Origin: an uncultured Candidatus Saccharibacteria bacterium
GTDB lineage: Bacteria; Patescibacteriota; WWE3; 2-01-FULL-39-13
Length of the DNA stretch: 64,000 bases
Direction of reading: 5' to 3'
Assembly (NCBI GenBank): GCA_964510925.1
Contig: CAZEDS010000004.1
Coordinates: 500-64,499, forward strand
Shown here: positions 23,127-63,432 of the stretch, piece after piece
How positions within the stretch are numbered: position 1 is the first letter of the stretch
How the letters are laid out: the number at the start of each line of letters is the position of its first letter
The notes under the pieces: model-generated
Told to the model about the DNA's origin: nothing
What the model saw: only the letters and a program-made list of their open reading frames with translations
The model's database searches: none
Position numbers and translations under genes: made by a program

Positions 23127-26100
23127 TTATTTTTGTTGTGTTGACGTTTCTGTTTTGTTAAATAATAAACTTGTAAAATTTGCTAAGTAATTTTTGTTTT
23201 TAATATTTTTTGCGATCTCGAGTTCTAAAATAGGTATTAATTTTAAAGCAGAGCCGTCCCATGTAAAATTTTTAGACCAAGCTAATGAATTATTTTGTAG
23301 GTTGGTTAAAAGTTCTGGATCTTCGATTATTTGTTTAATTCTTTTTGTAAAATCATTGACGCTTCCATATTTGACTAAGTATCCACTGTATTCGTGTTTA
23401 ACTGAATCTTTTAAACCTGGTACATTTGATGCAAGTACTGGCGTTCCACAAGAGTTTGCTTCAATTACTGAAATTCCCCAACCTTCCCAAATTGAAGGAT
23501 ATACAAAAATCCAAGCAGCTGACATGAGTTGGATTTTTTCTTCTTCTGTGACTTTGCCCAAAAATTTTATATGTTTTTCTAATTTTAATTTTTCAACAAT
23601 TTTTTGTAAGTGTGGGGTGTGGTCACCGAATCCAGCAATATTTAATTCAATGTTTGGAATTTCTTTTTTTAGTTTATCAATTGCATGAATTACTACTTCG
23701 ATAGATTTGTAAGATTTGATTCTGCCGAGATATAAAAGTGAAGGATGCTCAGTTTTTTTGCTTGTATAAAATTTAGATGATTCTGCACCAGGGTGAATAA
23801 TTTCAATTGCCTGATTTTTGCCTAGTCCAATTTTTATCATATCTTTTTTTGTCGAATCTGAAACAGTTATCATCTTGCAATTTTTATATACGATTGGCAT
23901 TATGTTAGATTCTAAAAACCTAGCAATATATGCAATTGGTTTTAAATGCAATGCAAGATCTAGCTCTTTTAAAATTATTTCTCGATGTACGTGGTGTACA
24001 AGACCGATAACAGGAGCGTCTGCATAAATAGGGGAGAAAAATGGGATTCCATTTTCTGAATCTATAACGACATCAAATTTTCCTCTGAATCTAAAAATGT
24101 AATAGATAAATGACCAAATATATACGGTGAATTGGCCACCTCTTCTTATTATGTAAATACCATCAATGGTTTCTCTACGTTTTGATTTTTGGTCATTTCC
24201 GCAGAATATAACGATAGACATTCCTTGTTTTTTTAAGCTTTTTGCAATTTCATGAACATAGGCTTCAGCACCACCTGCCCAAGTGTGTTTGGTATCTCTC
24301 CAGTTTAATATTAAAACACGCTTATTTTTATTTTCGATATGATCACTTGGAAGTTCTGAAAATAAATCTATAAAATCTTTTATATTGAGCCAAATTGTAA
24401 GAATATTTTTTTCATAATAATGAACTACAAAGGTCACCCCTAGGTTCAAAATTGAAAGAATAAAAATAGTATTAATAAAAGTTTGTAAGTTTGTTCCAAA
24501 TATAGAAAGAGCAGTAATCTGTGCCATTGCTATTACAAAGCTGATTATTGGGGTAATATAGTTTTTTCTGATTTGGTGGAATCCAATCACACAGCTTGAA
24601 AGTGTGAAGAATAATATTGCTAATGCATACTCTGGTAACAAGTAAGTTACAGGTACTATTTTTTGGCCTAATAAAATTGGAGCTGTTATATTTCCAAAAT
24701 ATCCAAAGAATAAATATGAAAAAAATCCGATGATTGCTGTAAACCCAAAAATCCAATAAAAACGTTGGCTGCTGTCTGCTTGTTCACCTTCACTCTTGCT
24801 TATAAATGGAACTAAAAACTGTCCAGCCAGTGAGCTTAAAAAGAATATCATTTTGCCTACTAGTGAAATCAACGCATAATATCCTGCATCGCTAGGTGAT
24901 AAATAATGTTTAGCCAAAATAATATCAATGCTAATAAATGCGATAACTGAAAATCTATAGATTACACCGCTTAAAAAAAATTCAGTAGGGAACTTTAATA
25001 TAATGTTAGAATTTTCAATTTGTTTATCTGTTTTGATTCTGCAAGCAAATACGTATCCGATTATTAGGGCCACAATCATTGATAATGGAATTGCATAATA
25101 CACAGAATCTTTTGATATATATGTATTGAGCAAATAAGTTAGAGCTAGTTTTGCAATTGGTTCCGATACAATTACAATGCTCAACAATTTGAATTTGTGT
25201 ACTCCATTAATATATCCATAATCGATTGATGAAAGTGCACCTATAATCCAAATCGGAGCAAATATAATAAATGGTATTACTGAACTTTCATTGAAAAAAC
25301 TTATTATAAATGGAGTTGCGATTAACCATGCGATGGCAAAAATTGTTGAGATTCCAAAAAATTTCTTTCGAGCATATCTCCAGAATCTGCCTATGATTTG
25401 GTCGAATTTCCCAAGAGAATATCCACTTTCGTATGCAACAGTTAACGATAATGAGCTAAAAAATAATGACGCAACAAATAAAAAGTTATTGAATAAACTT
25501 ATTAATCCAAAATCTTCGATGGTAAGGACTCTGCTCAGGTATGCGTTGCAAAGATAATTTAATGCATTACTAGCAAGTAATGCGATTATTAAAATAAATT
25601 CGCCATTTTTGTTGAGCTTATTAATCGCAAGAGCTAAGACTTTTATTTTTTTTTCTTCTTTTGGATTTGTTGTTACTGTTAGTTTTTCAGGTTCAATATT
25701 TGTAGCATTTTTTGGTTTATCTTTATTATTTTTTTTGAATAATGAAAATCTTTTTTTTTGGATAAGGTGAAGGCCGTGATTTGTTTTTTCCCAGTGATGC
25801 GGATTAAATATTAGCTGATAAAAGGCCATTACGGCGGCAAAAAACATTAATATCCAATAGAAAGGCACGAGAAAAACAAATTTCATTAATCCCCAATGAC
25901 CTCTTTTTGCACAGCCGATCATATAGTTATAAAGATAAATGAAATTACCAAATATCAATGAAATTGCGGCCATATAAAAAACTACAGTTGGGAACAGCGA
26001 TTCAATAAAAGGTGCAAGTTGGTTATAAAATACAAAATATGAAATTGTTGTTAGCCATAAAAATGGGTTGATTAAAATAAAGCTAATTCTGAGTCCAATT

Positions 26101-27902
26101 ATTAATTGAAATACAAAAGCATGTTTCCCATGTGCTTTAAAAAATTTAGCAGGGTTTCTCATGTGCACCAGATATGTTTGCATGTATCCTTTAATCCATC
26201 TTGATCGCTGTCTGATCCAATTTCGTGTGTTACTGTTTGCTTCTTCTAAAGTAGTTGAATCAATAATTGCGGTTGTGTAACCTAGTTTGAAAAGTCTAGA
26301 ACCAAGATCGCAGTCCTCAGTTACATTGAATGGATCCCAACCTTGTAATTCACGCAATTTTTTTGTTATGAAATGGTTGCTTGTTCCACCTAAAGGAATG
26401 ATCGTATTAATTGATTGGAGCCCAGGCAAAATAACATCAAACCAGAGTGAATATTCTGCAGTAAAAAAGCGTGTTAATAAATTGTGATTAGCGTTAAAGT
26501 AGTTTAATTTTGCTTGTACGCAAACTGTTTTTTCTCCAAGTTTGGTAAAGGCAAGATAGGCTTTTTTAAGTTGGTCTGGATCTGGTTTGTCTTCTGCATC
26601 ATAAATAACCACATATTCTCCATTTGCCCTTAAAAGTCCGTAATTACATGCTTTTGGCTTGGTCTTTGGCATTGAATGCGGTACAACCATTACTTTGAAA
26701 TACGAAGGTAATGTAATAGATTTTGCTGTTTCTATCGTTTCTAGATCATTAGCTTCTAATAGCAAAAGAACCTCAAGTTTATCTTTCGGCCAATTTAATG
26801 CCTCAATATGCTCCGCAAAAAAAGGCAAAACTTCTGATTCTTTGTAAAGTGGGCATAATACTGTATAAAGTGGCAAGGTTTTGTCATCTATTGCTGCGAT
26901 TTCATCCTTTTCAAACGTGAATTCTGGTGGGAAATGAAGACTTTTTAAAATCACATAAACATTAAAAAGCACATCTAAGAAGTAGATCGTGCTTAATATT
27001 GCAATGAAAATTAATGCGCATAAAAATGGATTGTAAATTATTGCTGCGATTAAGCCTATTCCAATTAATCCAAATGCTATTTTTTGAGATCTAACAAATG
27101 TATAAATTGCGGATTCTTTATGTGGAAGATGAGAGTGAGTTAAATATGCTTTTTTCTTATAAATGATACCTTTTTCAAAAGTATTCGGTTCATCAAGTTC
27201 GTATATTTTTTTAGGAGATAGTTTAACTTTTAACGCACACATTATAATTGCGTATGAAGTTTTTATTATCCCTACCTTTGAAGCACCATGCTTTCTGTCA
27301 CTGAATGTTATCGTTACCGAATCAAAGGTATAACCAAGTTCTCGTGCGGCTTCAAGCAAAGGAATGTCAAAAGTCCAAGGCGTAACGAGTTTTCTGTTAA
27401 TGTGGTTAATAATTTCTTTGCGAAAAATTTTTAGGCCAGATTGAATATCTACGTCCATACCTAAGAGCATTTTTCCAACTATAAAAGCGTTAACTTTTGA
27501 TAAAACGGCTCTTTCTCTAGAGAGGTTTTGAGTTTTGCGTTGTGCAATTACAACTCCAGTTTTAGCGTTTTCTTGGAGCTTTTTTACCATCTCTGGCAAA
27601 TGTTTAGGATGATATTGCAAATCGCCGTCAATAAATGCCACAAAATCAGCTGTTACTAGGTCTAGACCTTCTAAAATTGAATAACCTTTTCCGCCTTTTC
27701 CTTGCTTTTCATGAAGTATTACTGGATGGCTATCTTGCATTTTTTTAATATTTTCGATAGTTTTATCAGTGGATTGATCTACGATGAAGATTATTCTATA
27801 TTCTATGTTAGAGGGGGCGAGTGCCTGCTCAATGCTCAATACCATGTCTTTGATATTTTTTTCTTCGTTTTTTACGGGGACAATAATATCGATGACCGAC
27901 AT
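23127..27902 (-). CDS. 1591-aa multidomain fusion: GT2 (DPM1-like), processive GT2 (QxxRW), Wzx-like polysaccharide flippase, and GT4
   Basis: Domain 1: IIVPVKNEEKNI...FIDGDLQYHP. Domain 2: VLCPLYKESEV...VIYDAEDKPD...QRSRWIKG. Middle: about 12 TM segments resembling a Wzx N-terminus (NALNYLCNAYLSRVL). C-terminus: RVLILNWRD...EGWGISVIEANSCGTPVLASN (E-x7-E). Start moved to Met14 (27902). Confidence 0.75.
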   Translation of the reverse strand: MSVIDIIVPVKNEEKNIKDMVLSIEQALAPSNIEYRIIFIVDQSTDKTIENIKKMQDSHPVILHEKQGKGGKGYSILEGLDLVTADFVAFIDGDLQYHPKHLPEMVKKLQENAKTGVVIAQRKTQNLSRERAVLSKVNAFIVGKMLLGMDVDIQSGLKIFRKEIINHINRKLVTPWTFDIPLLEAARELGYTFDSVTITFSDRKHGASKVGIIKTSYAIIMCALKVKLSPKKIYELDEPNTFEKGIIYKKKAYLTHSHLPHKESAIYTFVRSQKIAFGLIGIGLIAAIIYNPFLCALIFIAILSTIYFLDVLFNVYVILKSLHFPPEFTFEKDEIAAIDDKTLPLYTVLCPLYKESEVLPFFAEHIEALNWPKDKLEVLLLLEANDLETIETAKSITLPSYFKVMVVPHSMPKTKPKACNYGLLRANGEYVVIYDAEDKPDPDQLKKAYLAFTKLGEKTVCVQAKLNYFNANHNLLTRFFTAEYSLWFDVILPGLQSINTIIPLGGTSNHFITKKLRELQGWDPFNVTEDCDLGSRLFKLGYTTAIIDSTTLEEANSNTRNWIRQRSRWIKGYMQTYLVHMRNPAKFFKAHGKHAFVFQLIIGLRISFILINPFLWLTTISYFVFYNQLAPFIESLFPTVVFYMAAISLIFGNFIYLYNYMIGCAKRGHWGLMKFVFLVPFYWILMFFAAVMAFYQLIFNPHHWEKTNHGLHLIQKKRFSLFKKNNKDKPKNATNIEPEKLTVTTNPKEEKKIKVLALAINKLNKNGEFILIIALLASNALNYLCNAYLSRVLTIEDFGLISLFNNFLFVASLFFSSLSLTVAYESGYSLGKFDQIIGRFWRYARKKFFGISTIFAIAWLIATPFIISFFNESSVIPFIIFAPIWIIGALSSIDYGYINGVHKFKLLSIVIVSEPIAKLALTYLLNTYISKDSVYYAIPLSMIVALIIGYVFACRIKTDKQIENSNIILKFPTEFFLSGVIYRFSVIAFISIDIILAKHYLSPSDAGYYALISLVGKMIFFLSSLAGQFLVPFISKSEGEQADSSQRFYWIFGFTAIIGFFSYLFFGYFGNITAPILLGQKIVPVTYLLPEYALAILFFTLSSCVIGFHQIRKNYITPIISFVIAMAQITALSIFGTNLQTFINTIFILSILNLGVTFVVHYYEKNILTIWLNIKDFIDLFSELPSDHIENKNKRVLILNWRDTKHTWAGGAEAYVHEIAKSLKKQGMSIVIFCGNDQKSKRRETIDGIYIIRRGGQFTVYIWSFIYYIFRFRGKFDVVIDSENGIPFFSPIYADAPVIGLVHHVHREIILKELDLALHLKPIAYIARFLESNIMPIVYKNCKMITVSDSTKKDMIKIGLGKNQAIEIIHPGAESSKFYTSKKTEHPSLLYLGRIKSYKSIEVVIHAIDKLKKEIPNIELNIAGFGDHTPHLQKIVEKLKLEKHIKFLGKVTEEEKIQLMSAAWIFVYPSIWEGWGISVIEANSCGTPVLASNVPGLKDSVKHEYSGYLVKYGSVNDFTKRIKQIIEDPELLTNLQNNSLAWSKNFTWDGSALKLIPILELEIAKNIKNKNYLANFTSLLFNKTETSTQQK

Positions 27903-27979
27903 AGTAATAAAATTAACACTAAACACCCAAGCCCAGGGCACTGGCTATAGGTTTAGATTATACAGGAAAATTCTGTTAG

Positions 27980-44938: not shown

Positions 44939-46957
44939 ATGTTTGAAACAATAGAGTTTTTTTATATTTTGCAATTTTATTTATTGTCGATTCTTTATTC
45001 GATAATTTCATTGCCAATATCAGTTCGGATTTTTAAATTTAATGCTGATCGTGGATATCCTTTAAACCGTACTCTAAGTTTGTTGTTAATCTCATATTTA
45101 ACTTGGATATTAAGTTCTGTATTTAAGATTCCATATTCGTCATTAACTATTTGGCTTGTAATTTTGGCATTTTTTTTGGTTTCCGTTTTTACTCGCGCAT
45201 ATAAAAAAGTTTTGGATCGATACAGTTCAAGATGGAAAATAATTTTGTTCGAGGAATTTTTATTTCTGTTTGCCTTTATATTAATGCTTATTTATAGGGG
45301 TTCAAATCCAAGAATTGAAGGCATCGAGAAGTTTATGGATTATGCAATTATCAACGGACTTTTCCGTGGAGAATCTCTTCCACCAAAAGATGTTTGGTTT
45401 AGTCCTTTTGCAATTAATTATTATTACTTTGGACATTTTTGCCTGACAATCATTAATAAGCTTACACAAATTCCAAGTGGAATTTCTTATAACTTAAATG
45501 TTGCATATATATATGCTTTATCGTTTGTGAGTGTCTTTTCTATTGGTTTAAATTTAATAAATATCGAAAAGGATAAATCTAAGGTTAAGAATTTATTGGC
45601 AATATTTATATCATTTTTAGGGGCGTTGATTGTTACCTCTGTGGGCAATTTAGATTACATGTATAAAGTGTTGTTTGAAAAAGTAACAGATTATTTTTAT
45701 GCAGATGCGAGAAGCCTGATTGAATTTACAATAAACGAATTCCCGGCATATAGTTTTTTGATTAGCGATTTGCACGCTCATATTCTAGATATTCCTTTCG
45801 TATTATTGTTTGTTGCATTAGTAATGAGCTATTCATTTGATGCAAAAGTTAAAAGTTCGAAATTATTTTTCTTGGTAACTTCTTTGAGTTTAGGTGCGTT
45901 AGCGGCCGTGAATAGTTGGGATTTTTTTGTATATTTACCATTTTTTGCTTTAGCCGTTTTGATAAATAATTTCAAGAAAATATCTAACGCCGAGAATTTT
46001 ATAAAAAAAGTATTTGTTCCAATCTTATCTGTTTTGCTAATTTCATTAGTTTTCTTTTTGCCTTTTTATTTGAACTTCCAACCGGCATCTGGTGGTGTAG
46101 GTTTTGTTAGCAGTCATTTCGGACTTGCGCCAGTTATCCGAATGTTCGGATTTTTTATTGCCATAACTTTTTTATATGTTGTAAATATTTCATATCGCAA
46201 TGTTTTTAATAAAAGCGATTCGTTTGTATTAGTACTTTTATTTTTTGGGCTTTTGTTGATCTTTGTCCCAAACATAGTTTTCTTAAAAGATATTTATTTT
46301 AAATTAAATCCACCATATTATTTGGCAAATACAATTTTTAAATTGTGGTATCAAGCTTGGATCGTTTTGGGCGTGTCTTCCGGCTATATACTTTTTAAAG
46401 GGCTTAGTTCATTGCCGAAAAAGCCATGGTTAATTCCGAATTTAGTAATAGTCACTTTTTTATTTTTTTACGTAATTAAATACACAATTGTTTCAGTACG
46501 ATATGTAGTAGGTCCAACTTATGAATATAAATCAATTGATGGAACTAAATATTTAGAATTTGGCTATTTAAGTGAACGGAGTTTAATTGATTGGTTATCA
46601 AAAAATATTGTAGGTCAGCCAGTAATTTTAGAAGCCGTTGGAAAACCATATACGATGGATTCCTTAATTTCATCTTATACCGGTTTACCTACAGTCGTAG
46701 GATGGAATGAACATGAGTTAGGTTGGCGAGATGACTGGCCATTAATATCAACAAGAATGGGCGAGGTCGAAAAAATTTATCAGTCTAATTCTATTGATGA
46801 AATCAAAGATCTTTTAAACAAATATGAAATTCAATATATTGTAATCTCCAAAAAAGAACGAGAGAAATATGGCGAAAACGCAGGGCAAACTTTGATGAAT
46901 TTTACGGAGAATGTTTTTATAGATGGAGACGTGCTTTTGCAAAGATATGAAAGATAA
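44939..46957 (+). CDS. large polytopic membrane protein with C-terminal soluble domain (possible GT-C/DUF2298-like)
   Basis: At least 12 TM segments followed by a ~170-aa soluble C-terminus. No catalytic motif recognised. Confidence 0.4.
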   Translation: MFETIEFFYILQFYLLSILYSIISLPISVRIFKFNADRGYPLNRTLSLLLISYLTWILSSVFKIPYSSLTIWLVILAFFLVSVFTRAYKKVLDRYSSRWKIILFEEFLFLFAFILMLIYRGSNPRIEGIEKFMDYAIINGLFRGESLPPKDVWFSPFAINYYYFGHFCLTIINKLTQIPSGISYNLNVAYIYALSFVSVFSIGLNLINIEKDKSKVKNLLAIFISFLGALIVTSVGNLDYMYKVLFEKVTDYFYADARSLIEFTINEFPAYSFLISDLHAHILDIPFVLLFVALVMSYSFDAKVKSSKLFFLVTSLSLGALAAVNSWDFFVYLPFFALAVLINNFKKISNAENFIKKVFVPILSVLLISLVFFLPFYLNFQPASGGVGFVSSHFGLAPVIRMFGFFIAITFLYVVNISYRNVFNKSDSFVLVLLFFGLLLIFVPNIVFLKDIYFKLNPPYYLANTIFKLWYQAWIVLGVSSGYILFKGLSSLPKKPWLIPNLVIVTFLFFYVIKYTIVSVRYVVGPTYEYKSIDGTKYLEFGYLSERSLIDWLSKNIVGQPVILEAVGKPYTMDSLISSYTGLPTVVGWNEHELGWRDDWPLISTRMGEVEKIYQSNSIDEIKDLLNKYEIQYIVISKKEREKYGENAGQTLMNFTENVFIDGDVLLQRYER

Positions 46958-47014
46958 TAAAAATCTTAAACTTTATAAGACAAAAATTTAAAGTAGGTGT
47001 ACGCTAATTAGTAT

Positions 47015-47737
47015 ATGAACATAACAATAAATCTATCCCGATACCAATTTGTAGTATTGACTGTACTGTTTGGTATATTAATTGGGTTATTTACTTCAAG
47101 GCTTGTATACAGTGCAGGCGATACGATTAATGGTTGTATTAAAGTTAATGGTACATTGCGAATATTAACCGGAATTGACACGTGTACTTCTAATGAAACA
47201 CCTATTAGTTGGAGTTCGGGTGGTGGCTCTACTGGAGTTGGGCCAGGAGATTTTTTAAGTACAGATCTTAGTAATAAAGGCCCATTAGCTTGGGGTTGGG
47301 CAACTTATCGTAATTTTAGAAATTTTAATTTTTCGAACACAAATTTGGGTGGACCTGATTTTGGTTATTCTGATTTAAGTGGAGCAAATTTTTCTGGGGC
47401 TTCGATAAATGGTGGAGGACTATCACACGTTATTGCACATGGAGCAAATTTTTCAGGAGCTTCCCTTAATGGCTCATATATTGGATTTGGTGATTTTGCT
47501 GGATCTGATTTTTCTAACGCAAATCTTTCAGATTTAAATGCAGGCACAAGTGGAACTAATTATGTTCCAATGAATGGTGTAATTAATATGGCCAACGCTA
47601 ATTTTACAAATGCAACTCTTCTTAATTCACATGTTTTAACGGTTGCTGATTTTACAGGTGCAATTTGGTCAAATACGATTTGCCCAGATGGAACAAATAG
47701 CGATAGTAATGGCAACACTTGTGTTGGACATCTTTAA
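47015..47737 (+). CDS. pentapeptide-repeat protein with N-terminal TM
   Basis: Repeats ANFSGASINGG / ANFSGASLNGS / SDFSNANLSDL. Confidence 0.65.
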   Translation: MNITINLSRYQFVVLTVLFGILIGLFTSRLVYSAGDTINGCIKVNGTLRILTGIDTCTSNETPISWSSGGGSTGVGPGDFLSTDLSNKGPLAWGWATYRNFRNFNFSNTNLGGPDFGYSDLSGANFSGASINGGGLSHVIAHGANFSGASLNGSYIGFGDFAGSDFSNANLSDLNAGTSGTNYVPMNGVINMANANFTNATLLNSHVLTVADFTGAIWSNTICPDGTNSDSNGNTCVGHL

Positions 47738-47842
47738 AAATTCCGGATTAGTGTTTAATAATTAGATTGAAACTTTTATACGAAAGAGTTAATTCTTGTG
47801 TTTGCCCATAGTTTTTATTCCACACAATAACATTAAAATTAT

Positions 47843-48487
47843 ATGAACAAAAAAAATCTAAAAGTTCTTATAATCGTAGTTTGGATTTTGTTGTTGATTT
47901 TTGTTGTATGGAAATTTATTAGTTTGCAGATTCCGATTTCTGATTATCCTCGTGTTCTTGCAAATTTTATAAATCAATTTGGTTGGTGGGCGCCGTTATT
48001 CTTTATTTTATTATTTGTGATAAGGCCATTTATATTTTTTCCTGCGACTATTTTAAGTGTTTCTGTTGGATTGCTTTTTGGAGCAACTAAGGCGATATTG
48101 ATTTTAGTTGTTGCTGAAAATTTGAGTGCATATGTTTCATACAATATTGGGAAATATTTTGGGAAAGACATACTCTCAAAATTCGGTAGTAATAAATCGT
48201 TTGTAAAATCTTTTGAGAAATATTTTCAGCAAAATGATTTTATTGCAATTTTATGCTTACGTTTAGTTTTTGCACCATTTGATTTTGTCGGTTATGTTGC
48301 AGGTGCAAGTTCCATTAAATATAAATCATTTGCTCTTGCGACTTTTATTGGAATTATTCCAGGATTATTATTGTCTGCGTTTTTAGGTGGTTCATTTGCA
48401 AACCCATATTATTTTTTTGTTGTAATTTTTTTATTTTTAAGCACTTTGCTTTTATCTAAATTTATTAAAAAGAAATACACAATATGA
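47843..48487 (+). CDS. DedA / TVP38-TMEM64 family membrane protein
   Basis: VVAENLSAYVSYNIGKYFGKD DedA motif. Four TM. Confidence 0.7.
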   Translation: MNKKNLKVLIIVVWILLLIFVVWKFISLQIPISDYPRVLANFINQFGWWAPLFFILLFVIRPFIFFPATILSVSVGLLFGATKAILILVVAENLSAYVSYNIGKYFGKDILSKFGSNKSFVKSFEKYFQQNDFIAILCLRLVFAPFDFVGYVAGASSIKYKSFALATFIGIIPGLLLSAFLGGSFANPYYFFVVIFLFLSTLLLSKFIKKKYTI

Positions 48488-49863
48488 ATACAGAAAAAAC
48501 TTTTGATTATTTAGTAATTGGTGCAGGATCGGGTGGTCTTTTGGCATATGTTGGATTAAAAAATTTAGGAAAAAATGTAGCAATAGTTTCAAAAAATATT
48601 GGTGGTGATTGTACTCAGTATGGATGTGTTCCATCAAAAACTTTTTTGCATTTGGCCAAAGAATATCGATTAACCATTGATCCAGTTAAAAAAGCTAAGA
48701 TAAAAGATGAATCTTTAAATTCAATTAGAAAAATGGTTCAAGAATTTACACACGAAGAAAATAAACTTGTATTAGGTGAATCATATTTTGATGGCACTGC
48801 GGAATTTATTAATGGAAAAAGCGTAAAGGTTATATACCCAGACAAATCAATCGCAATTATTGGTTTTAGAAAAAAATGTATTATCGCAACAGGTAGTAGT
48901 CCCACAAGAGCTACAATTTCTGGTGTTCCGGTAGAAAAAATTATTACAAATGAAGATTTTTTTGAGTTATCAGTGTTGCCAAAATCAATCACAATAATCG
49001 GGGGAGGACCTATTGGTGCAGAATTTGCGACAGCATGTGCAAGTTTTGGCGTTGAAACATATATGCTTTCGCCTGATTATTTATCTCGTGAACCTAAAGA
49101 AATTTCTGCAAGAAGCTTACAATCATTAAAAAAATTAGGAGTTCAATATTTTCCTTTAAAAGCTGACCATTTAGAAAACAATAGATTGTATCTTGAGGAT
49201 GGAACGAATATTCCAGAAACAGATTATTATTTGATTGCAATTGGTAGAAAGCCAAATGTTCAAGTAGGACTTGAACATGCAAATATAAAATATTCACAAA
49301 AAGGAATAGTCGTCGATAGAAATTTATACACAGCCAATAAAAATATTTTTGCGATTGGTGATTGTACTCAAAACCCACAATTTACACATCTTGCAGCAAA
49401 CCAAGGAAAATTTGTTTTGAAAAAAATATTAATTCCATTTGCTAAAAATTCTGAAAGGTCTTTGCCAAGGGTTACCTTTACGTCGCCAACTATAGCGAGT
49501 GCCGGTCAGCTTGAAGAAAATAATTTCTCTAAAAAATTTGTACTTGATTTCGCAAATTTAGACCGAGCAAAAACTAATTATGATAAAGAAAGTTACGGTG
49601 AAGTTTTTGTAGATATTCGTTATGGATATATTCTTGGGGCATCATTATTTGGTGATTTTGCGGAAGATTTAATAAATGTTTTTACATTAATGATTGATGA
49701 AAAAATTCCATTACTAAAACTCGCAAATTTCATGACTCCATATCCAACATATGGAAATATATTTCATTCTTTAGTCATTGAATATTTTTCATTTATTTCA
49801 AAGGATTGGAAGAAACATCCGATTAGAACTATTTATCAGCTTTGGGGATATGTGCGGTCGTAG
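48484..49863 (+). CDS. class I pyridine nucleotide-disulfide oxidoreductase (FAD-dependent)
   Basis: FDYLVIGAGSGG. Redox-active GGDCTQYGCVPSK. A second Rossmann motif IIGGGPIGAEFA. Confidence 0.8.
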   Translation: MNTEKTFDYLVIGAGSGGLLAYVGLKNLGKNVAIVSKNIGGDCTQYGCVPSKTFLHLAKEYRLTIDPVKKAKIKDESLNSIRKMVQEFTHEENKLVLGESYFDGTAEFINGKSVKVIYPDKSIAIIGFRKKCIIATGSSPTRATISGVPVEKIITNEDFFELSVLPKSITIIGGGPIGAEFATACASFGVETYMLSPDYLSREPKEISARSLQSLKKLGVQYFPLKADHLENNRLYLEDGTNIPETDYYLIAIGRKPNVQVGLEHANIKYSQKGIVVDRNLYTANKNIFAIGDCTQNPQFTHLAANQGKFVLKKILIPFAKNSERSLPRVTFTSPTIASAGQLEENNFSKKFVLDFANLDRAKTNYDKESYGEVFVDIRYGYILGASLFGDFAEDLINVFTLMIDEKIPLLKLANFMTPYPTYGNIFHSLVIEYFSFISKDWKKHPIRTIYQLWGYVRS

Positions 49864-49864
49864 G

Positions 49865-49888
49865 GGTGACCCTATGGGGAATGAAATC
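49865..49888 (-). repeat. partial duplicate (19/23 nt) of the tRNA-Glu 3' end (acceptor/T-stem 3' strands plus ACC)
   Basis: ggtgaccctatggggaatgaaatc at this site versus ggtgaccctacggggaatcgaacc at the tRNA. A third 13-nt copy, accctacggggaa, is at 50017..50029. Confidence 0.45.
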
Positions 49889-50145
49889 TCGCTTTGCTCG
49901 ATTTCCAATTTGTCTAAAGTTCGCTTTGCTCACTTTGGCAAATTGCAGAACTTGCTTTGCAATGGTTTGATTCCAGTCATAACGTCAAGAGAAATTGATT
50001 GCTGCTTAATTTAGTACCCTACGGGGAAGCGCTCACTGCGTTCGCTAGGCTTCGCCCAGAACTTTGTGCGGTAGCACAAATGGTTCGTTGCCTTATAAGT
50101 TCACAAGCAAAATAATACCCACCTATTGGTGAGTCTCATTTTGCT

Positions 50146-50220
50146 TGGTGACCCTACGGGGAATCGAACCCCGATTTACAGGATGAGAACCTGCTGTCCT
50201 AACCGTTAGACGATAGGGCC
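50146..50220 (-). tRNA. tRNA-Glu (anticodon CUC) with encoded CCA
   Basis: Manual fold gave acceptor GGCCCUA/UAGGGUC, D arm GUCU-AACGGUUA-GGAC, and anticodon stem GCAGG/CCUGU. The anticodon loop is UUCUCAU. T arm is CGGGG-UUCGAUU-CCCCG, with discriminator A followed by CCA. Confidence 0.8.
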
Positions 50221-50551
50221 TTTTATCAATCTATAATGACCATTATAGGCGTTTTTGACTATCAAAATGATAACATACGTTTTATTTACTTTTAACCTTT
50301 ACCAGACCCTTTAGGGCTTGTCAGAACCAATTGTCTTAGCTATAATTCCTGTTCTAGTGTTCTAGACCGATTAATTGTTTGATACGGTTAGTTGACTAGT
50401 TTGCACTAAATAGTAAAATTTTAAAGTTCAAATCGAACATTGCTGGATACCTTAATCCATAGTAATTAAGGGTTAAATCAAATTTAACTGTTATCGCAAT
50501 ATTTACATAAAGTTGGAGTGTTTGTTTTTGAACACATTGAAAGGAATTTAT

Positions 50552-51025
50552 ATGGATAAAAAAATATTATTAACTAAAACAGGATACGAGGATTTAAAGA
50601 TAGAGCTTGATAAGCTTATAAATGTTGAATACCCACATGTTTTGGAGCAGTTGAATCTTGCTCGATCGATGGGTGATCTTAAGGAAAATGGTATGTTTAC
50701 CGTTATGAAAGAAAAACAACTTCAAGTACAAGGTCGAATGGCTGAACTCGAAGAGATTCTTAAGAATGCGGAAATCGTAGACAATAGCGATTCATCAAAT
50801 AGCTCGAAACGAGTTGTTAGTTTTGGCTCAAAAGTCCATTTAGAGTCTGAAAAACAAAAAGTTGCTTACTCAATTGTTGGTTCAGAAGAGGTTAATGCTA
50901 CACTAGGTAAAATCTCGCACGAGTCTCCAATTGGACAAGCTTTGCTAGGAAAAGTTGTCGGAGATGTTGTTGAGGTTAAGATTCCGATGGGTACTATCAA
51001 ATACAAGATTATTGATATTGCCTGA
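50552..51025 (+). CDS. greA: transcription elongation factor GreA
   Basis: N-terminal coiled-coil LTKTGYEDLKIELDKL and C-terminal ISHESPIGQALLGKVVGDVVEV. Start at internal Met14 with an AAGGA RBS. Confidence 0.8.
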   Translation: MDKKILLTKTGYEDLKIELDKLINVEYPHVLEQLNLARSMGDLKENGMFTVMKEKQLQVQGRMAELEEILKNAEIVDNSDSSNSSKRVVSFGSKVHLESEKQKVAYSIVGSEEVNATLGKISHESPIGQALLGKVVGDVVEVKIPMGTIKYKIIDIA

Positions 51026-51050: not shown

Positions 51051-51515
51051 ATGACAAAAGGACAAACATTTATAACAGAAGAAGGTTACAAAAAATTAAA
51101 GGAAGAACTAGAGGCTTTGAGAAATGAATCTAGAGTTACGGTTGCTAAAAAAATACAAGAAGCTAGAGAGATGGGCGGAGTAGAAGAAAACCCAGCATAC
51201 GATGTTGCTGTAGAGCAATTTGGTTTTATCGAAGGTCGAATTTCAGAAATCGAAGATGTATTAGCAAATACAACAATTGCTGAAGTCGATAAGAGCGCTA
51301 GTGTTGTTGAATTAGGTGCAAACGTTGTTGTAGAATTTTCTGGTAAAAAAGATACCTTTAGAATTGTTAGTTCAGTTGAGGCCGATCCTACAAAGAGATT
51401 GATTTCAGTAGAATCTCCAGTTGGAAAAGCTTTGCTTGGTGCCAAAAAAGGTGATGTAGTTGTTGTTAAAACACCAGTCATCGTGGCCCATTACAAAATA
51501 ATTGAAATAAAATGA
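51051..51515 (+). CDS. GreA/GreB-family transcription elongation factor (second tandem copy)
   Basis: ITEEGYKKLKEELEALRN and ISVESPVGKALLGAKKGDVVVV. Confidence 0.7.
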   Translation: MTKGQTFITEEGYKKLKEELEALRNESRVTVAKKIQEAREMGGVEENPAYDVAVEQFGFIEGRISEIEDVLANTTIAEVDKSASVVELGANVVVEFSGKKDTFRIVSSVEADPTKRLISVESPVGKALLGAKKGDVVVVKTPVIVAHYKIIEIK

Positions 51516-60837: not shown

Positions 60838-60879
60838 TCACAGTATGCACGATTGCCTTTTAACTATATAATCCAGATT

Positions 60880-63432
60880 ATGTTTTTAAGCTATATTGAC
60901 TCTATTATTAACCCAAATAAATTTAAACTTGCAAAGCCGACGCAGATTTTAAAAAGAATAAATGATCTTGAATCAAAATATAAGGAATACACGGATCTTC
61001 AATTAAAAGAAGCTATTTTATCTTTTAAAGAAGATTTAAGAAAAGACTCAAAAGACGTTGATTTTAAAGTTTTGAACGATAAGCTTGATGCTTTGTTGCC
61101 TGATGTTTATGCAATTATTCGTGAGGCATCATTGCGTGTTATGAATCAACGACATCGAGACGTTCAGCTTATTGCTGGAATTGTTTTGCATCAAGGCAAG
61201 ATTGCTGAGCAAAAAACAGGAGAGGGTAAGACTCTTACTGCAACACTTCCGCTTATATTAAATTCACTGACTGGACGAGGTGCACATTTGATTACTCCAA
61301 ATGATTACTTATCAAAACATGGCGCGGGTTGGTATGGACCTCTTTTTGATTTTTTAGGTATAACTGTCGGAGTTATTGTTGATGACTTATCTTATGTTTA
61401 TGATGTTGAATATTTGGTTCCTGATGTAATTGACGAATACACAAAGCATTTAAGACCTGTTGGTCGTGCACAGGCATATCAAGCAGATATCACCTATGGG
61501 ACTGCGAGTTCTTTTGGTTTTGATTATTTGCGTGACAACATGGCAAAAGAATTGAACCGAATTTCACAGCAAAATCCAAATGGCGATTATGGTGATCATA
61601 ATTTTGCGATCGTTGACGAGGTAGATGCAATTTTGATTGATATTGCTAGAACTCCACTTATTATTTCTGGGCCATCAACGGATACCGCTGAAGATTATTT
61701 AAAATTTGCACATCTTGCAGAAGGTTTAGTTGAAGGAACTGATTACACTAAAGATGAAAAAGAAAAGTTTTTAATGTTAACTGAACTTGGTATTAATAAA
61801 ATCGAACGAAAGTTAGGTGTCGAAAATCTTTATGAAAAAGATTTTAATACGGTTCATCGGATTGAGAACTCCTTAAAGGCGAAAGTTTTTTTTCATAAAA
61901 ACAAAGATTATATTGTTCGTGATGGTGAGATTTTAATTATTGATCAAAATACTGGGCGTGTATTGTCAGGTAATCGCTGGAGTCGAGGTTTGCATCAAGC
62001 AATTGAGGCAAAGGAAAATCTAAAAGTTCAGGCAGAAAACAAAACAGTCGCAACAATTTCATATCAAAATTATTTTAGATTGTATAGAAAACTTTCTGGT
62101 ATGACTGGTACGGCTTCGACTGAGTCCGAAGAATTTTATAAAATTTATAATTTGGATGTTGTTGTTATTCCTACTAATAAAAAAATTGCGAGAGTTGATC
62201 GTCCTGATATTGTTTATAAAACTGAAACTGGAAAATTTCAAGCAATAGCAAAAGATATTCAAGAAAGAAATAAAAAAGGTCAGCCAATTTTAATCGGAAC
62301 AATAAGTATTCAAAAATCTGAATTGATTTCAAAATATTTAAAACATTTAGGTGTAAAACATGAAATTTTGAACGCAAAACACCATGACCGTGAAGCTCAA
62401 ATCATTAGGCAAGCAGGTCAAAAAGGTTCGGTTACTGTTGCTACAAATATGGCTGGTCGAGGAGTTGATATTATTTTAGGTGGTGATCCTTTTGATAAAG
62501 AAAAATTTGATGAAATAACTTCGTTGGGTGGTTTGTTTGTTGTAGGAACTGAAAGACATGATTCAAGACGAATTGATAATCAGTTAAGAGGTCGATCAGG
62601 TCGACAAGGTGAAATTGGTGAATCAAGATTTTATTTGTCGCTTCAAGATGATTTGGTTCGAATTTTTGGAGGTTCAACAATTGAGTCAATAATGACTCGA
62701 ATGGGAGTTGGTGATGAAGTTCCAATTGAAGCTGGATTGATTTCCAAATCAATTGAAAGTGCACAAAAAAAGGTTGAAGGTATAAATTTTGATATGCGAC
62801 GTAGGCTTGTAGAGTTTGATGATGTTATTAATATTCAGCGTGAATCAATTTATAGAATGCGTCGCAGAATTTTATTTGCTGAATTTGAAAAACGTGAAGG
62901 TTTGTATGAGTGGTTAGCAAAAAAACTTGATCCACAAAAGTTTAATTTTGAAGAACTAAGAATAGATAGAGAAAAAGAATATGGCGAAATGGTTTGGTTT
63001 CAAGTTTGCAGAAATATTTGTTTGGATACGATTGATTTTTTATGGATGGATCATATTGATACGATGGATGATTTAAAAACTGAGGTAAGCCTACGACATT
63101 ATGGGCAATTGGATGATGTTGTCGAATATAAGCGAGAAGCAAGAATTTTATTTGATGCGTTAGTTTCAGAGATCAACAATACTATTACTGATAGATTAGA
63201 AAAAATTGAGGTAAAAGTTGAATATATAAATGAACCAACTAACACGGAGACTTCAAATCAATTTGTTACAAATAATCCTGATGTTATTGAGAGCGGTTTT
63301 AAAGATGAGGCTGCTGCTCTTTTAACACGGGCAAATGATGGTTCAATCGATTTTTCAAAAGCAAAGCGCAATGATCCATGTCCATGTGGTAGTGGGAGGA
63401 AGTTCAAGAATTGCCACGGGCGCAATTCTTGA
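60880..63432 (+). CDS. secA: preprotein translocase ATPase SecA
   Basis: Walker A QKTGEGKTLTATLP. DEVD DEAD-box-like. C-terminal Zn finger CPCGSGRKFKNCHG. Start chosen at Met10 of the track ORF. Confidence 0.9.
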   Translation: MFLSYIDSIINPNKFKLAKPTQILKRINDLESKYKEYTDLQLKEAILSFKEDLRKDSKDVDFKVLNDKLDALLPDVYAIIREASLRVMNQRHRDVQLIAGIVLHQGKIAEQKTGEGKTLTATLPLILNSLTGRGAHLITPNDYLSKHGAGWYGPLFDFLGITVGVIVDDLSYVYDVEYLVPDVIDEYTKHLRPVGRAQAYQADITYGTASSFGFDYLRDNMAKELNRISQQNPNGDYGDHNFAIVDEVDAILIDIARTPLIISGPSTDTAEDYLKFAHLAEGLVEGTDYTKDEKEKFLMLTELGINKIERKLGVENLYEKDFNTVHRIENSLKAKVFFHKNKDYIVRDGEILIIDQNTGRVLSGNRWSRGLHQAIEAKENLKVQAENKTVATISYQNYFRLYRKLSGMTGTASTESEEFYKIYNLDVVVIPTNKKIARVDRPDIVYKTETGKFQAIAKDIQERNKKGQPILIGTISIQKSELISKYLKHLGVKHEILNAKHHDREAQIIRQAGQKGSVTVATNMAGRGVDIILGGDPFDKEKFDEITSLGGLFVVGTERHDSRRIDNQLRGRSGRQGEIGESRFYLSLQDDLVRIFGGSTIESIMTRMGVGDEVPIEAGLISKSIESAQKKVEGINFDMRRRLVEFDDVINIQRESIYRMRRRILFAEFEKREGLYEWLAKKLDPQKFNFEELRIDREKEYGEMVWFQVCRNICLDTIDFLWMDHIDTMDDLKTEVSLRHYGQLDDVVEYKREARILFDALVSEINNTITDRLEKIEVKVEYINEPTNTETSNQFVTNNPDVIESGFKDEAAALLTRANDGSIDFSKAKRNDPCPCGSGRKFKNCHGRNS

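What the first reader, a model, noticed from the sequence alone, without database searches (positions are those of the whole stretch)
49865..50220. tRNA-Glu with two nested partial duplicates of its 3' end, a putative integration/excision scar
Besides the intact tRNA-Glu (50146-50220, minus), a 23-nt copy of its 3' end including the ACC sits at 49865-49888. It is 19/23 identical, GGTGACCCTAyGGGGAAT, and lies immediately after the oxidoreductase stop. A 13-nt copy, ACCCTACGGGGAA, is at 50017-50029. Tyrosine-integrase elements regenerate exactly such 3'-tRNA direct repeats at their distal ends. Only about 260 bp lies between the copies, which suggests a decayed or excised element or repeated integration events. 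The region also holds degenerate CGCTTTGCTC repeats and is followed by a 290-bp AT-rich spacer before greA.
Basis: partly seen in the sequence, partly recalled or inferred. Interest (0 to 1): 0.5.

Follow-up and report, generated by a model that had tools for sequence, protein, structure and literature searches.

The report
Integration scars beside a tRNA-Glu gene
Two leftover partial copies of the end of a tRNA-Glu gene mark a spot where foreign DNA has repeatedly been spliced into this small-genome (CPR) bacterium, a well-known kind of scar whose recombinase has been lost here.

Summary
An intact tRNA-Glu(CUC) lies at 50146-50220 on the minus strand. It is followed, in direct orientation, by two partial copies of its 3' end: 50016-50031 and 49865-49882. 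Both start at the same T-loop position.

The integration-scar reading is largely supported by related sequences. In strain-level relatives copy 2 is a perfect 18-mer including CCA, and homology to the window stops 6 nt beyond it. The window then carries 3.0 kb (hairpins, copy 1, oxidoreductase, VTT, pentapeptide protein) where the other haplotype has 0.47 kb.

In sister species, strains diverge exactly at the CCA end of this tRNA. At least seven other loci carry a recombinase gene that reads into tRNA-Glu. It is a large serine recombinase, not a tyrosine integrase. One such element carries the closest homologues of the window's VTT-oxidoreductase pair, in the same order and orientation.

The window has no recombinase, so this is a decayed stack of remnants.

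Three points are unresolved:
- which recombinase class made the 18-nt repeats;
- whether the copies are whole decayed tRNA units;
- what two hairpins with identical 11-nt loops do.

This is a known kind of feature and of modest interest.

The parts
50146..50220 (-). Intact tRNA-Glu (anticodon CUC) with CCA encoded. It is the regenerated target, i.e. the attL side.
   Evidence: ARAGORN and Rfam tRNA at 61.7 bits. The sequence is identical in both strain haplotypes and in L044.
50107..50134 (-). Terminator-like hairpin directly after the tRNA: ACTCACC-AATA-GGTGGGT followed by ATTATTTTGC.
   Evidence: Terminator scan. The other haplotype has a different terminator, a clean bidirectional one, in the same place.
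50063..50145 (-). Proximal spacer between the tRNA and the conserved block. It is only about 50% identical between the two haplotypes, although the flanks are 96-100% identical. It contains the hairpin TTTGTGC-GGTA-GCACAAA at 50063-50080.
   Evidence: Alignment and identity profile.
50016..50062 (-). A 47-nt block identical in both haplotypes. It consists of copy 2 of the tRNA 3' end (TTCCCCGTAGGGT, 50016-50028) plus a 31-nt GC-rich imperfect palindrome (GGGCGAAGC...GCGCTTCCCC). I read it as an att-like site: an element arm plus the core.
   Evidence: In the L-type haplotype the copy is a perfect 18-mer, TTCCCCGTAGGGTCACCA. The Logan contig ends at 50045 and 50033 are the k=31 branch points expected around this shared block.
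50005..50015 (-). Distal end of copy 2 and the haplotype breakpoint. CACC of the 18-mer is replaced by ACTA (50012-50015). The 6 nt after the CCA position (ATTAAG on the minus strand) are still shared. All homology ends at 50004/50005.
49883..49963 (-). Hairpin-rich segment found only in the window haplotype. Two hairpins have an identical 11-nt loop (GAGCAAAGCGA on the minus strand): 49883-49905, and 49916-49936 (49906-49945 with its outer stem). A third hairpin lies at 49942-49963. The two stems differ by two fully compensated base pairs. Function unknown.
   Evidence: (D7, I16). No other instance in 390 kb of related loci.
49865..49902 (-). Copy 1 of the tRNA 3' end. It matches 17/18 from the T-loop to ACC (49865-49882). 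The similarity fades out over 38 nt (76%). CCA reads as CCC.
   Evidence: (D1).
46960..50004 (.). A 3045-bp segment specific to the window haplotype. It lies between the DUF2298 stop codon and copy 2, and the other haplotype has 469 bp here instead. I infer it is the remnant of an integrated element or a swapped islet.
   Evidence: BLAST of L035, L037, L038 and L039 against the window; sequences.
47015..47737 (+). Pentapeptide-repeat protein, part of the variable segment.
   Evidence: Pfam. Absent from the L-type haplotype.
47843..49863 (+). VTT/DedA-family membrane protein (47843-48487) and a pyridine-nucleotide-disulfide oxidoreductase (48484-49863). This two-gene module recurs on a serine-recombinase element at tRNA-Glu in L049.
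   Evidence: Pfam listing. 72% and 64% amino-acid identity to the L049 genes, in the same order and orientation relative to tRNA-Glu. A fused VTT-Pyr_redox gene lies next to the recombinase remnant in L045.

Best explanation
The 3' end of tRNA-Glu(CUC) is a site-specific integration hotspot in this CPR (Microgenomates-like) lineage. The two partial copies of the tRNA end are att-type repeats left by successive integrations.

Mechanism (inferred, following the standard model for islands in tRNA genes). A recombinase joins an element to the tRNA 3' end. This leaves a functional tRNA on one side. At the element's far end it leaves a tRNA-3'-like sequence, either the displaced original end or the element's own look-alike half-site. 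A later element can use either copy, so remnants stack up.

Here the recombination and transfer genes have been deleted. What remains is:
1. a 117-nt proximal remnant ending in copy 2;
2. a 131-nt hairpin-rich remnant ending in copy 1;
3. probably the adjacent pentapeptide, VTT and oxidoreductase genes, as retained cargo.

The recombinase was most likely a large serine recombinase of the family whose gene reads into tRNA-Glu in relatives.

Shown: the repeats, their common start point, the strain polymorphism bounded by copy 2, the recombinase elements at this tRNA in relatives, and the fact that no recombinase was detected among the window ORFs I scanned.

Inferred: that these particular repeats were made by integration, that the recombinase was of the serine class, and that the 3-kb segment is cargo.
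For: Repeats:
- Three exact, same-strand copies of a 13-mer lie within 300 nt and nowhere else in the 64 kb.
- Both partial copies begin at the same tRNA position (T-loop, about nt 58). So does the repeat in the unrelated locus L032.
- No tRNA-like similarity is found on the 5' side of the tRNA.

Strain haplotypes:
- Four contigs from other samples are 97% identical from 50005 rightwards.
- In them copy 2 is a perfect 18-mer including CCA.
- Between copy 2 and DUF2298 their DNA is unrelated to the window's: 469 bp against 3045 bp.
- Logan contig ends fit both haplotypes being present in SRR2135036.

Sister species:
- L045 and L046 are 99.97% identical starting exactly at the tRNA CCA end. Beyond it they carry different islands.
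- L018 and L033 against L014 show the same break.

Recombinases at this tRNA:
- Intact serine recombinases with Resolvase, Recombinase and Zn_ribbon domains overlap the tRNA end in L014, L024 and L049. L026 carries an N-terminally truncated one. Remnants occur in L044 and in L045/L048.
- L024 has a 14/18 copy of the tRNA end, with the last 9 nt perfect, followed by a terminator. It lies 9.3 kb away. About 0.1 such hits are expected by chance.

Cargo:
- The L049 element also carries a TraG-like gene and a Replic_Relax gene. Its VTT and oxidoreductase genes are the closest homologues of the window's, in the same order and orientation relative to tRNA-Glu.
- The pair sits in unrelated contexts elsewhere.
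Against: - No recombinase or transfer gene was detected in the window, though nine ORFs were not scanned. No empty site or excised circle was observed, so integration is inferred and not seen.
- The 3-kb segment has no recognisable repeat at its DUF2298 end.
- It could be native flank that was swapped by homologous recombination. The DUF2298 flank is only 79-96% identical between the haplotypes.
- Intact serine-recombinase elements show at most 9 perfect nt of repeat (L024) or none within reach (L014, L049). Perfect 18-nt repeats starting in the T-loop are more typical of tyrosine integrases.
- The copies show some similarity to the tRNA 5' half as well (L-type unit 2, p=0.0035). A plain 3'-fragment model does not predict this.
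- The two hairpins with identical loops are not explained.
Confidence: 0.68

Rival explanations
1. Tandem duplication of the whole tRNA-Glu gene, followed by decay of two of the three copies. On this reading it is a pseudo-tRNA array and no mobile element is involved. The strain variation next to it would be ordinary islet turnover.
For: - A four-way alignment places a 5' acceptor-like strand and the AGCAGGTTCT anticodon-arm motif in each unit, in the right order.
- Similarity of the L-type unit 2 to the tRNA 5' half has shuffle p=0.0035. Unit 1 has p of about 0.05-0.09.
- The L-type unit folds with an 8-bp acceptor-like stem followed by ACCA.
- Decayed tRNAs would explain the 44% GC and the strong folding z-scores.
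Against: - ARAGORN and the Rfam tRNA model (E up to 10) see nothing in either unit.
- The window's unit 2 shows no significant 5' similarity.
- In both units the homology is lost over the same internal stretch (nt 36-57) and resumes at the same T-loop base. Independent decay does not predict this.
- The haplotype break sits 6 nt past the CCA of copy 2, and related species break exactly at the CCA of the real tRNA, next to recombinase genes. This points to site-specific events.
- The two models can be combined, since a displaced copy also decays.
Confidence: 0.2
2. The GC-rich, strongly folding 282 nt encode a functional structured RNA, for example a tRNA-like RNA or an sRNA co-transcribed with or adjacent to tRNA-Glu. 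Alternatively the two identical-loop hairpins are a functional RNA or single-stranded-DNA module, such as a remnant of a transfer or replication origin.
For: - The minus-strand fold has z=-5.1 and the plus-strand fold z=-3.5.
- GC is 44% against 30% in the flanks.
- Two hairpins have identical 11-nt loops and two fully compensated stem pairs.
- On the minus strand the loop can close as tandem G-A pairs plus GC-AAA-GC (my reading of the sequence).
- The 47-nt block is perfectly conserved between haplotypes while the neighbouring sequence is not.
Against: - No Rfam family matches even at E up to 10.
- The hairpin part is absent from strains that are 97-99% identical in the flanking genes, so it is not a housekeeping RNA.
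- A terminator lies between the tRNA and the rest of the region.
- No other instance of the hairpin motif occurs in 390 kb of related loci, in phage or plasmid databases, or in viral contigs.
- Only two paralogous copies support the covariation.
Confidence: 0.1
3. The similarity is a chance match of short GC-rich palindromic words.
For: CCC-N-GGG words are self-complementary and slightly enriched. A fourth weak match upstream (50305-50316) is at chance level.
Against: Exact 13-mers occur three times in 300 nt and nowhere else in 64 kb. The 18-mer is perfect in the other haplotype.
Confidence: 0.01

Closest known systems
Genomic islands in tRNA/tmRNA genes, marked by the regenerated gene and its displaced 3' fragment (Islander database, PMC4383910; sublocation classes of Williams 2002, from my own knowledge)
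   Same: An intact tRNA with direct-orientation partial 3' copies downstream. The copies start in the T-loop and run to the 3' end. The DNA bounded by them varies between strains.
   Different: No integrase is left in the window. The inter-repeat segments are only 117 and 131 nt. The recombinases seen at this tRNA in relatives are serine-type, whereas Islander-type islands are defined by tyrosine integrases.
Tycheposon-shaped islands in Prochlorococcus (bioRxiv 10.1101/2020.12.28.424599)
   Same: A streamlined genome with a hypervariable island next to a tRNA. Partial tRNAs are scattered as remnants of successive integrations that push older elements outward. Fragmented integrases occur. A minority of the elements use large serine recombinases.
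   Different: A different phylum (CPR). Here the recombinase ORF reads through the tRNA itself. No replication module, and no activity, has been shown.
CIMEs (cis-mobilizable elements): ICE-derived remnants flanked by att sites but lacking recombination and transfer genes (Streptococcus thermophilus; from my own knowledge)
   Same: att-like repeats bound DNA that has lost its recombinase. Such remnants can arise by accretion of incoming elements at a retained att site.
   Different: No evidence that the remnant here can still be mobilised. Copy 2 in the window has lost CACC.
Large-serine-recombinase elements that insert at the 3' end of a conserved gene (for example SCCmec/Ccr at rlmH, phiC31 or Bxb1 type integrases; from my own knowledge)
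   Same: The relatives carry Resolvase, Recombinase and Zn_ribbon proteins immediately at the target's 3' end. Repeats are short in the intact example (9 nt perfect in L024).
   Different: The target is a tRNA gene, and the recombinase ORF overlaps it antisense by 37 to more than 75 nt. The att sites have not been mapped experimentally.

Membership tests
tRNA-gene integration site with displaced/att 3' fragment | An intact target tRNA plus a direct-orientation partial copy of its 3' end downstream. | tested here: met
   two copies at +117 and +264 nt, on the same strand.
tRNA-gene integration site with displaced/att 3' fragment | The DNA bounded by the repeat is present, absent or different in close relatives, with the break at the repeat. 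| tested here: met
   the haplotype break lies 6 nt past copy 2; in the sister species the break is at the tRNA CCA end.
tRNA-gene integration site with displaced/att 3' fragment | An integrase or recombinase gene inside the bounded segment, next to the tRNA. | tested here: not met
   None among the 41 window ORFs scanned with Pfam, including all those in 28-53 kb next to the tRNA. Nine of the 50 listed ORFs were not scanned. The feature is met in the relatives L014, L024, L026, L044, L045, L048 and L049.
tRNA-gene integration site with displaced/att 3' fragment | Demonstrated excision or integration (empty site, or circular junction). | not testable with these tools
   This needs read-level data or an experiment.
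   None in the window ORFs scanned, and none in the ORFs next to tRNA-Glu in about 30 related loci.
Large-serine-recombinase integrative element | A Resolvase + Recombinase + Zn_ribbon protein adjacent to the att site. | tested here: not met
   Absent from the window ORFs scanned. tblastn with the L045 recombinase hits the window only on the tRNA antisense. Present at the same tRNA in relatives.
Decayed element / CIME-like remnant | att-like repeats flanking DNA that lacks recombination and transfer genes. | tested here: met
   together with the Pfam scans.
Tandem tRNA gene array / tRNA pseudogenes | Each unit is recognisable as a tRNA (cloverleaf) or is homologous over its full length. | tested here: inconclusive
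   Not detected by ARAGORN or Rfam. Similarity to the 5' half has p=0.0035 (L-type unit 2), about 0.05-0.09 (unit 1) and is not significant for the window's unit 2.
Known structured RNA family (Rfam 15) | A covariance-model match. | tested here: not met
   nothing apart from the tRNA.

The most novel reading that the evidence does not exclude
The window holds the decayed footprint of a family of integrative elements in CPR/Patescibacteria and other lineages that I did not find described in a limited full-text search. Some members may be conjugative, since L049 carries TraG-like and Replic_Relax genes. The family would use a large serine recombinase whose ORF reads antisense through tRNA-Glu, and would use the last roughly 18 nt of the tRNA as one att half-site. 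On this reading, the conserved 47-nt block and the paired hairpins with identical loops would be functional cis elements (att arm, or single-strand origin) rather than junk.
Probability: 0.3. Interest if true: 0.5.

Novelty: new member of a known kind. Interest (0 to 1): 0.3.

Why it matters
For this genome it explains three things. The GC-rich, hairpin-rich stretch next to tRNA-Glu is not a gene. The assemblies break there. The oxidoreductase/VTT/pentapeptide genes are accessory, strain-variable DNA.

More broadly, CPR bacteria have tiny genomes and are usually described as poor in mobile elements. A tRNA-Glu hotspot recurs across several lineages and is served by serine recombinases whose genes overlap the tRNA. 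It swaps redox, defence (SMODS, methyltransferase) and retroelement cargo. That would be a useful handle on how these organisms exchange genes, and a possible source of new site-specific integrases. The scar in the window is itself an ordinary example of a well-known phenomenon.

Tried and rejected
- Rfam at gathering and at E up to 10 on the window region and on the L-type region: only the tRNA and a terminator look-alike.
- tmRNA, RNase P, SRP and 6S readings: considered from the sequence and dropped for lack of any conserved motif or Rfam match.
- A phage attP carrying the tRNA end: the viral scan found only a jumbo-phage tRNA array. The 29-mer arm is not in viral contigs. Phage and plasmid blastn found nothing.
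- Synteny through the oxidoreductase: relatives at 55-64% identity have no tRNA-Glu downstream, apart from the later L049 extension.
- A further distal repeat in the window: only a 5-mismatch hit inside the BipA gene, at chance level.
- A fourth copy upstream of the tRNA (50305-50316): not significant.
- Tandem Repeats Finder on the 32-nt hairpin units: nothing.
- The hairpin motif elsewhere: none in 390 kb of loci.
- Recombinase remnants in the window by tblastn: none.
- Far-end repeats of the L014 and L049 elements: not found within 9-16 kb.
- L043 (GreA 87% identical) has no tRNA upstream of greA, so it is uninformative.

Full report
**Observation**

The window comes from a low-GC (about 32%) CPR/Microgenomates-like bacterium. 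ARAGORN and Rfam find one tRNA-Glu(CUC) at 50146-50220 on the minus strand, with CCA encoded.

Downstream of it, in tRNA orientation, lie two partial copies of its 3' end on the same strand.
- Copy 2 is TTCCCCGTAGGGT at 50016-50028, or 16 nt with one mismatch.
- Copy 1 is at 49865-49882. It matches 17/18, from the T-loop to ACC, and begins 2 nt after the oxidoreductase stop codon. An ungapped 38-nt alignment is 76% identical.

The 13-mer occurs three times in the 64 kb, and only here. Both copies start at the same tRNA base.

The 282 nt between the oxidoreductase stop and the tRNA are 44% GC against about 30% in the flanks. They fold far better than shuffled sequence, with z=-5.1 on the minus strand and z=-3.5 on the plus strand. 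They form the loops of two hairpins whose stems differ by two fully compensated pairs.

**What the region is not**

Rfam finds no family other than the tRNA, even at E up to 10. A terminator-like hairpin follows the tRNA directly.

I scanned 41 of the 50 ORFs listed across the window with Pfam (at least 90 aa in 28-44 kb, at least 120-130 aa elsewhere). None matched an integrase or recombinase. The nine not scanned include 23127-27941 (1604 aa) and 60853-63432 (859 aa). No phage attP carrying this sequence was found.

**Strain-level comparison (the key result)**

I looked up the exact GreA protein encoded 330 nt from the tRNA. This returned contigs from several samples, and they fall into two haplotypes.
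- The W type comprises the window, L036 and L041.
- The L type comprises L035, L037, L038 and L039.

The L type is 96-100% identical to the window from the tRNA rightwards. The tRNA itself is identical. It also shares a 47-nt block (50016-50062) that contains copy 2.

The two haplotypes differ in three ways.
- In the L type, copy 2 is a perfect 18-mer, TTCCCCGTAGGGTCACCA, identical to the tRNA end including CCA.
- All homology stops 6 nt beyond that CCA, at window 50004/50005. From there to the DUF2298 stop codon (46959) the window has 3045 bp, containing the hairpins, copy 1, the oxidoreductase, the VTT protein and the pentapeptide protein. The L type has 469 unrelated bp.
- The 83-nt spacer between the block and the tRNA is only about 50% identical, and each haplotype has its own terminator.

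The DUF2298 flank is 79-96% identical.

Two Logan contigs of SRR2135036 end at 50045 and start at 50033. These are exactly the k=31 branch points expected if both haplotypes share only the block in that sample. That last step is inference.

**Relatives**

The arrangement tRNA-Glu, greA, greA, a 452-456-aa protein and lysS is conserved in L044 (GreA 74% identical, tRNA identical) and in L045-L048 (GreA 62%).

In L044, L045 and L048 a serine-recombinase gene reads into the tRNA 3' end. The L045 copy has Recombinase and Zn_ribbon domains but lacks the catalytic Resolvase domain, so it is a remnant. The sister strains L046 and L047 carry a different island there, with HTH, methyltransferase and SMODS genes. 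L045 and L046 are 99.97% identical starting exactly at the CCA end.

An independent scan of metagenomes for the tRNA's anticodon-arm sequence gave 22 loci. In three of them (L014, L024, L026) a serine recombinase with Resolvase, Recombinase and Zn_ribbon domains overlaps the last 37 nt of the tRNA. The L014 and L024 copies are intact. The L026 copy lacks the start of the Resolvase domain.

In L024 the only tRNA-end-like 18-mer lies 9.3 kb away and is followed by a terminator. It matches 14/18, with the last 9 nt perfect, and about 0.1 such hits are expected by chance. This is a plausible far end of the element.

L032, an unrelated organism of about 50% GC, has the same miniature architecture as the window: tRNA, terminator, 155 nt, an exact 18-nt copy, then a terminator. 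It also has a further GGGTCACCA-plus-terminator repeat 1.5 kb on.

No tyrosine integrase was seen at any of these loci.

**Link to the oxidoreductase**

The closest homologues of the window's oxidoreductase (64%) and VTT protein (72%) lie in L049. There they sit between a Replic_Relax gene and a TraG-like gene. An intact 534-aa serine recombinase lies 3 kb downstream, and its ORF runs antisense through a tRNA-Glu(UUC). It is 98.8% identical to the L045 remnant.

Gene order and orientation are the same as in the window: VTT, then oxidoreductase, then tRNA-Glu on the opposite strand. The window therefore looks like such an element with the transfer and recombinase module deleted. However, the same gene pair also occurs in non-mobile contexts, so this step is inference.

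**Interpretation**

The best reading is a decayed stack of integration remnants at a tRNA-Glu hotspot (confidence about 0.68). The recombinase class is open. Every recombinase seen at this tRNA is serine-type. On the other hand, perfect 18-nt repeats that start in the T-loop are classically a tyrosine-integrase signature, and intact serine-recombinase elements here show at most 9 perfect nt. One reconciliation is that the 18-19 nt correspond to one recombinase half-site that the element end mimics. This is inference and is untested.

**Rivals**

A four-way alignment suggests that each copy is a whole decayed tRNA unit. Shuffle tests give p=0.0035 for the L-type unit 2, about 0.05-0.09 for unit 1, and no significance for the window's unit 2. 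The region upstream of the tRNA shows nothing. Tandem duplication followed by decay therefore remains possible (about 0.2), and it can be combined with the scar model.

A functional RNA or single-strand element is unlikely for the region as a whole, because the hairpin part is missing from near-identical strains. It cannot be excluded for the 47-nt conserved block or for the hairpin pair (about 0.1).

**Novelty**

Partial tRNAs as island boundary markers and remnants are textbook. Examples are Islander (PMC4383910) and the tycheposon islands (10.1101/2020.12.28.424599). My literature searches found no description of serine-recombinase elements at tRNA-Glu in CPR, but the searches were limited.

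Verdict: a new member of a known kind, with interest 0.3.

Noticed in passing
L014 3884-5512, L024 4393-5976, L026 390-1844, L044 5-823, L045 3688-4806, L049 14432-16036: Large-serine-recombinase genes from several unrelated lineages all end inside tRNA-Glu (CUC or UUC), read antisense. The last 12 to 32 codons are therefore tRNA-encoded (...VTPRGIEPRF(T/A)G*). This may be an undescribed tRNA-Glu-specific integrase family.
   Followed up: partly
L049 1-16036 (GCA_964579395.1, CAZOFT010000001.1): A candidate integrative, possibly conjugative, element in a CPR genome. It carries a serine recombinase, a TraG/TrwB-like ATPase, Replic_Relax, an ArsR-type HTH, a glutaredoxin and the VTT + oxidoreductase pair. 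It also has a reverse transcriptase with bAvd (a diversity-generating retroelement) and a HepT/MNT toxin-antitoxin pair. Its left end was not found.
   Followed up: partly
L046 1-4742, L047 1-3502: In a sister species the same tRNA-Glu site holds a defence-type island (SMODS domain, N6/N4 methyltransferase, HTH) in place of the recombinase remnant.
   Followed up: no
window 49883-49905 and 49916-49936: Two hairpins 32 nt apart have an identical 11-nt loop (GAGCAAAGCGA on the minus strand). Their stems differ by two fully compensated pairs. On the minus strand the loop could close as tandem G-A pairs plus GC-AAA-GC. Found nowhere else. Unexplained.
   Followed up: partly
window 50012-50015 versus L035 2463-2466: Copy 2 differs between the haplotypes by four adjacent substitutions (CACC in L, ACTA in W). 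The sequence is identical on both sides of them. This looks more like a recombination joint than like point-mutation decay.
   Followed up: no
window 50063-50145 versus L035 2514-2594: The 83-nt spacer after the tRNA is about 50% identical between haplotypes that are otherwise 96-100% identical. Each version keeps a terminator and a small hairpin in the same places.
   Followed up: partly
window 44974-46959 versus L035 1-1986: The DUF2298 gene is only 79-96% identical between haplotypes (lowest in the middle), against 96-100% on the greA side. This suggests a recombination tract ending at the tRNA locus.
   Followed up: partly
L032 240-2060 and L020 46-802: An unrelated organism of about 50% GC has three copies of the tRNA-Glu(CUC) 3' end. 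Two of them carry the same 67-nt terminator repeat and flank a 1.5-kb segment. Its relative L020 has different DNA after the tRNA.
   Followed up: partly
L034 1933-2101: In an AT-rich relative with the same tRNA 3' end, a short ORF running into the tRNA reads ...LSDIFRNPVYAGVL...VTLRGIEPRLAG*. By my reading this resembles a heavily deleted serine-recombinase remnant. No domain search was run on it.
   Followed up: no
window 50552-51025 and 51051-51515: There are two tandem greA paralogues, followed by a conserved 455-aa protein with no Pfam match, then lysS. The arrangement is conserved in L044-L048.
   Followed up: no
window 50392-50450; L044 about 1025-1085; L043 about 1335-1390: A promoter-like TTGACT-16-TAAAAT is followed by a conserved motif, AAAGTTCAAATCGAACATTGCT, upstream of greA. 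It is kept in relatives whose GreA is 74-87% identical. It may be a greA leader element.
   Followed up: no
L001 (JBILVZ010000034.1) and L044 (SSFZ01000051.1): Contigs that carry CPR-type genes are filed in public MAGs named Methylococcaceae and Niabella. These are probably binning errors.
   Followed up: no
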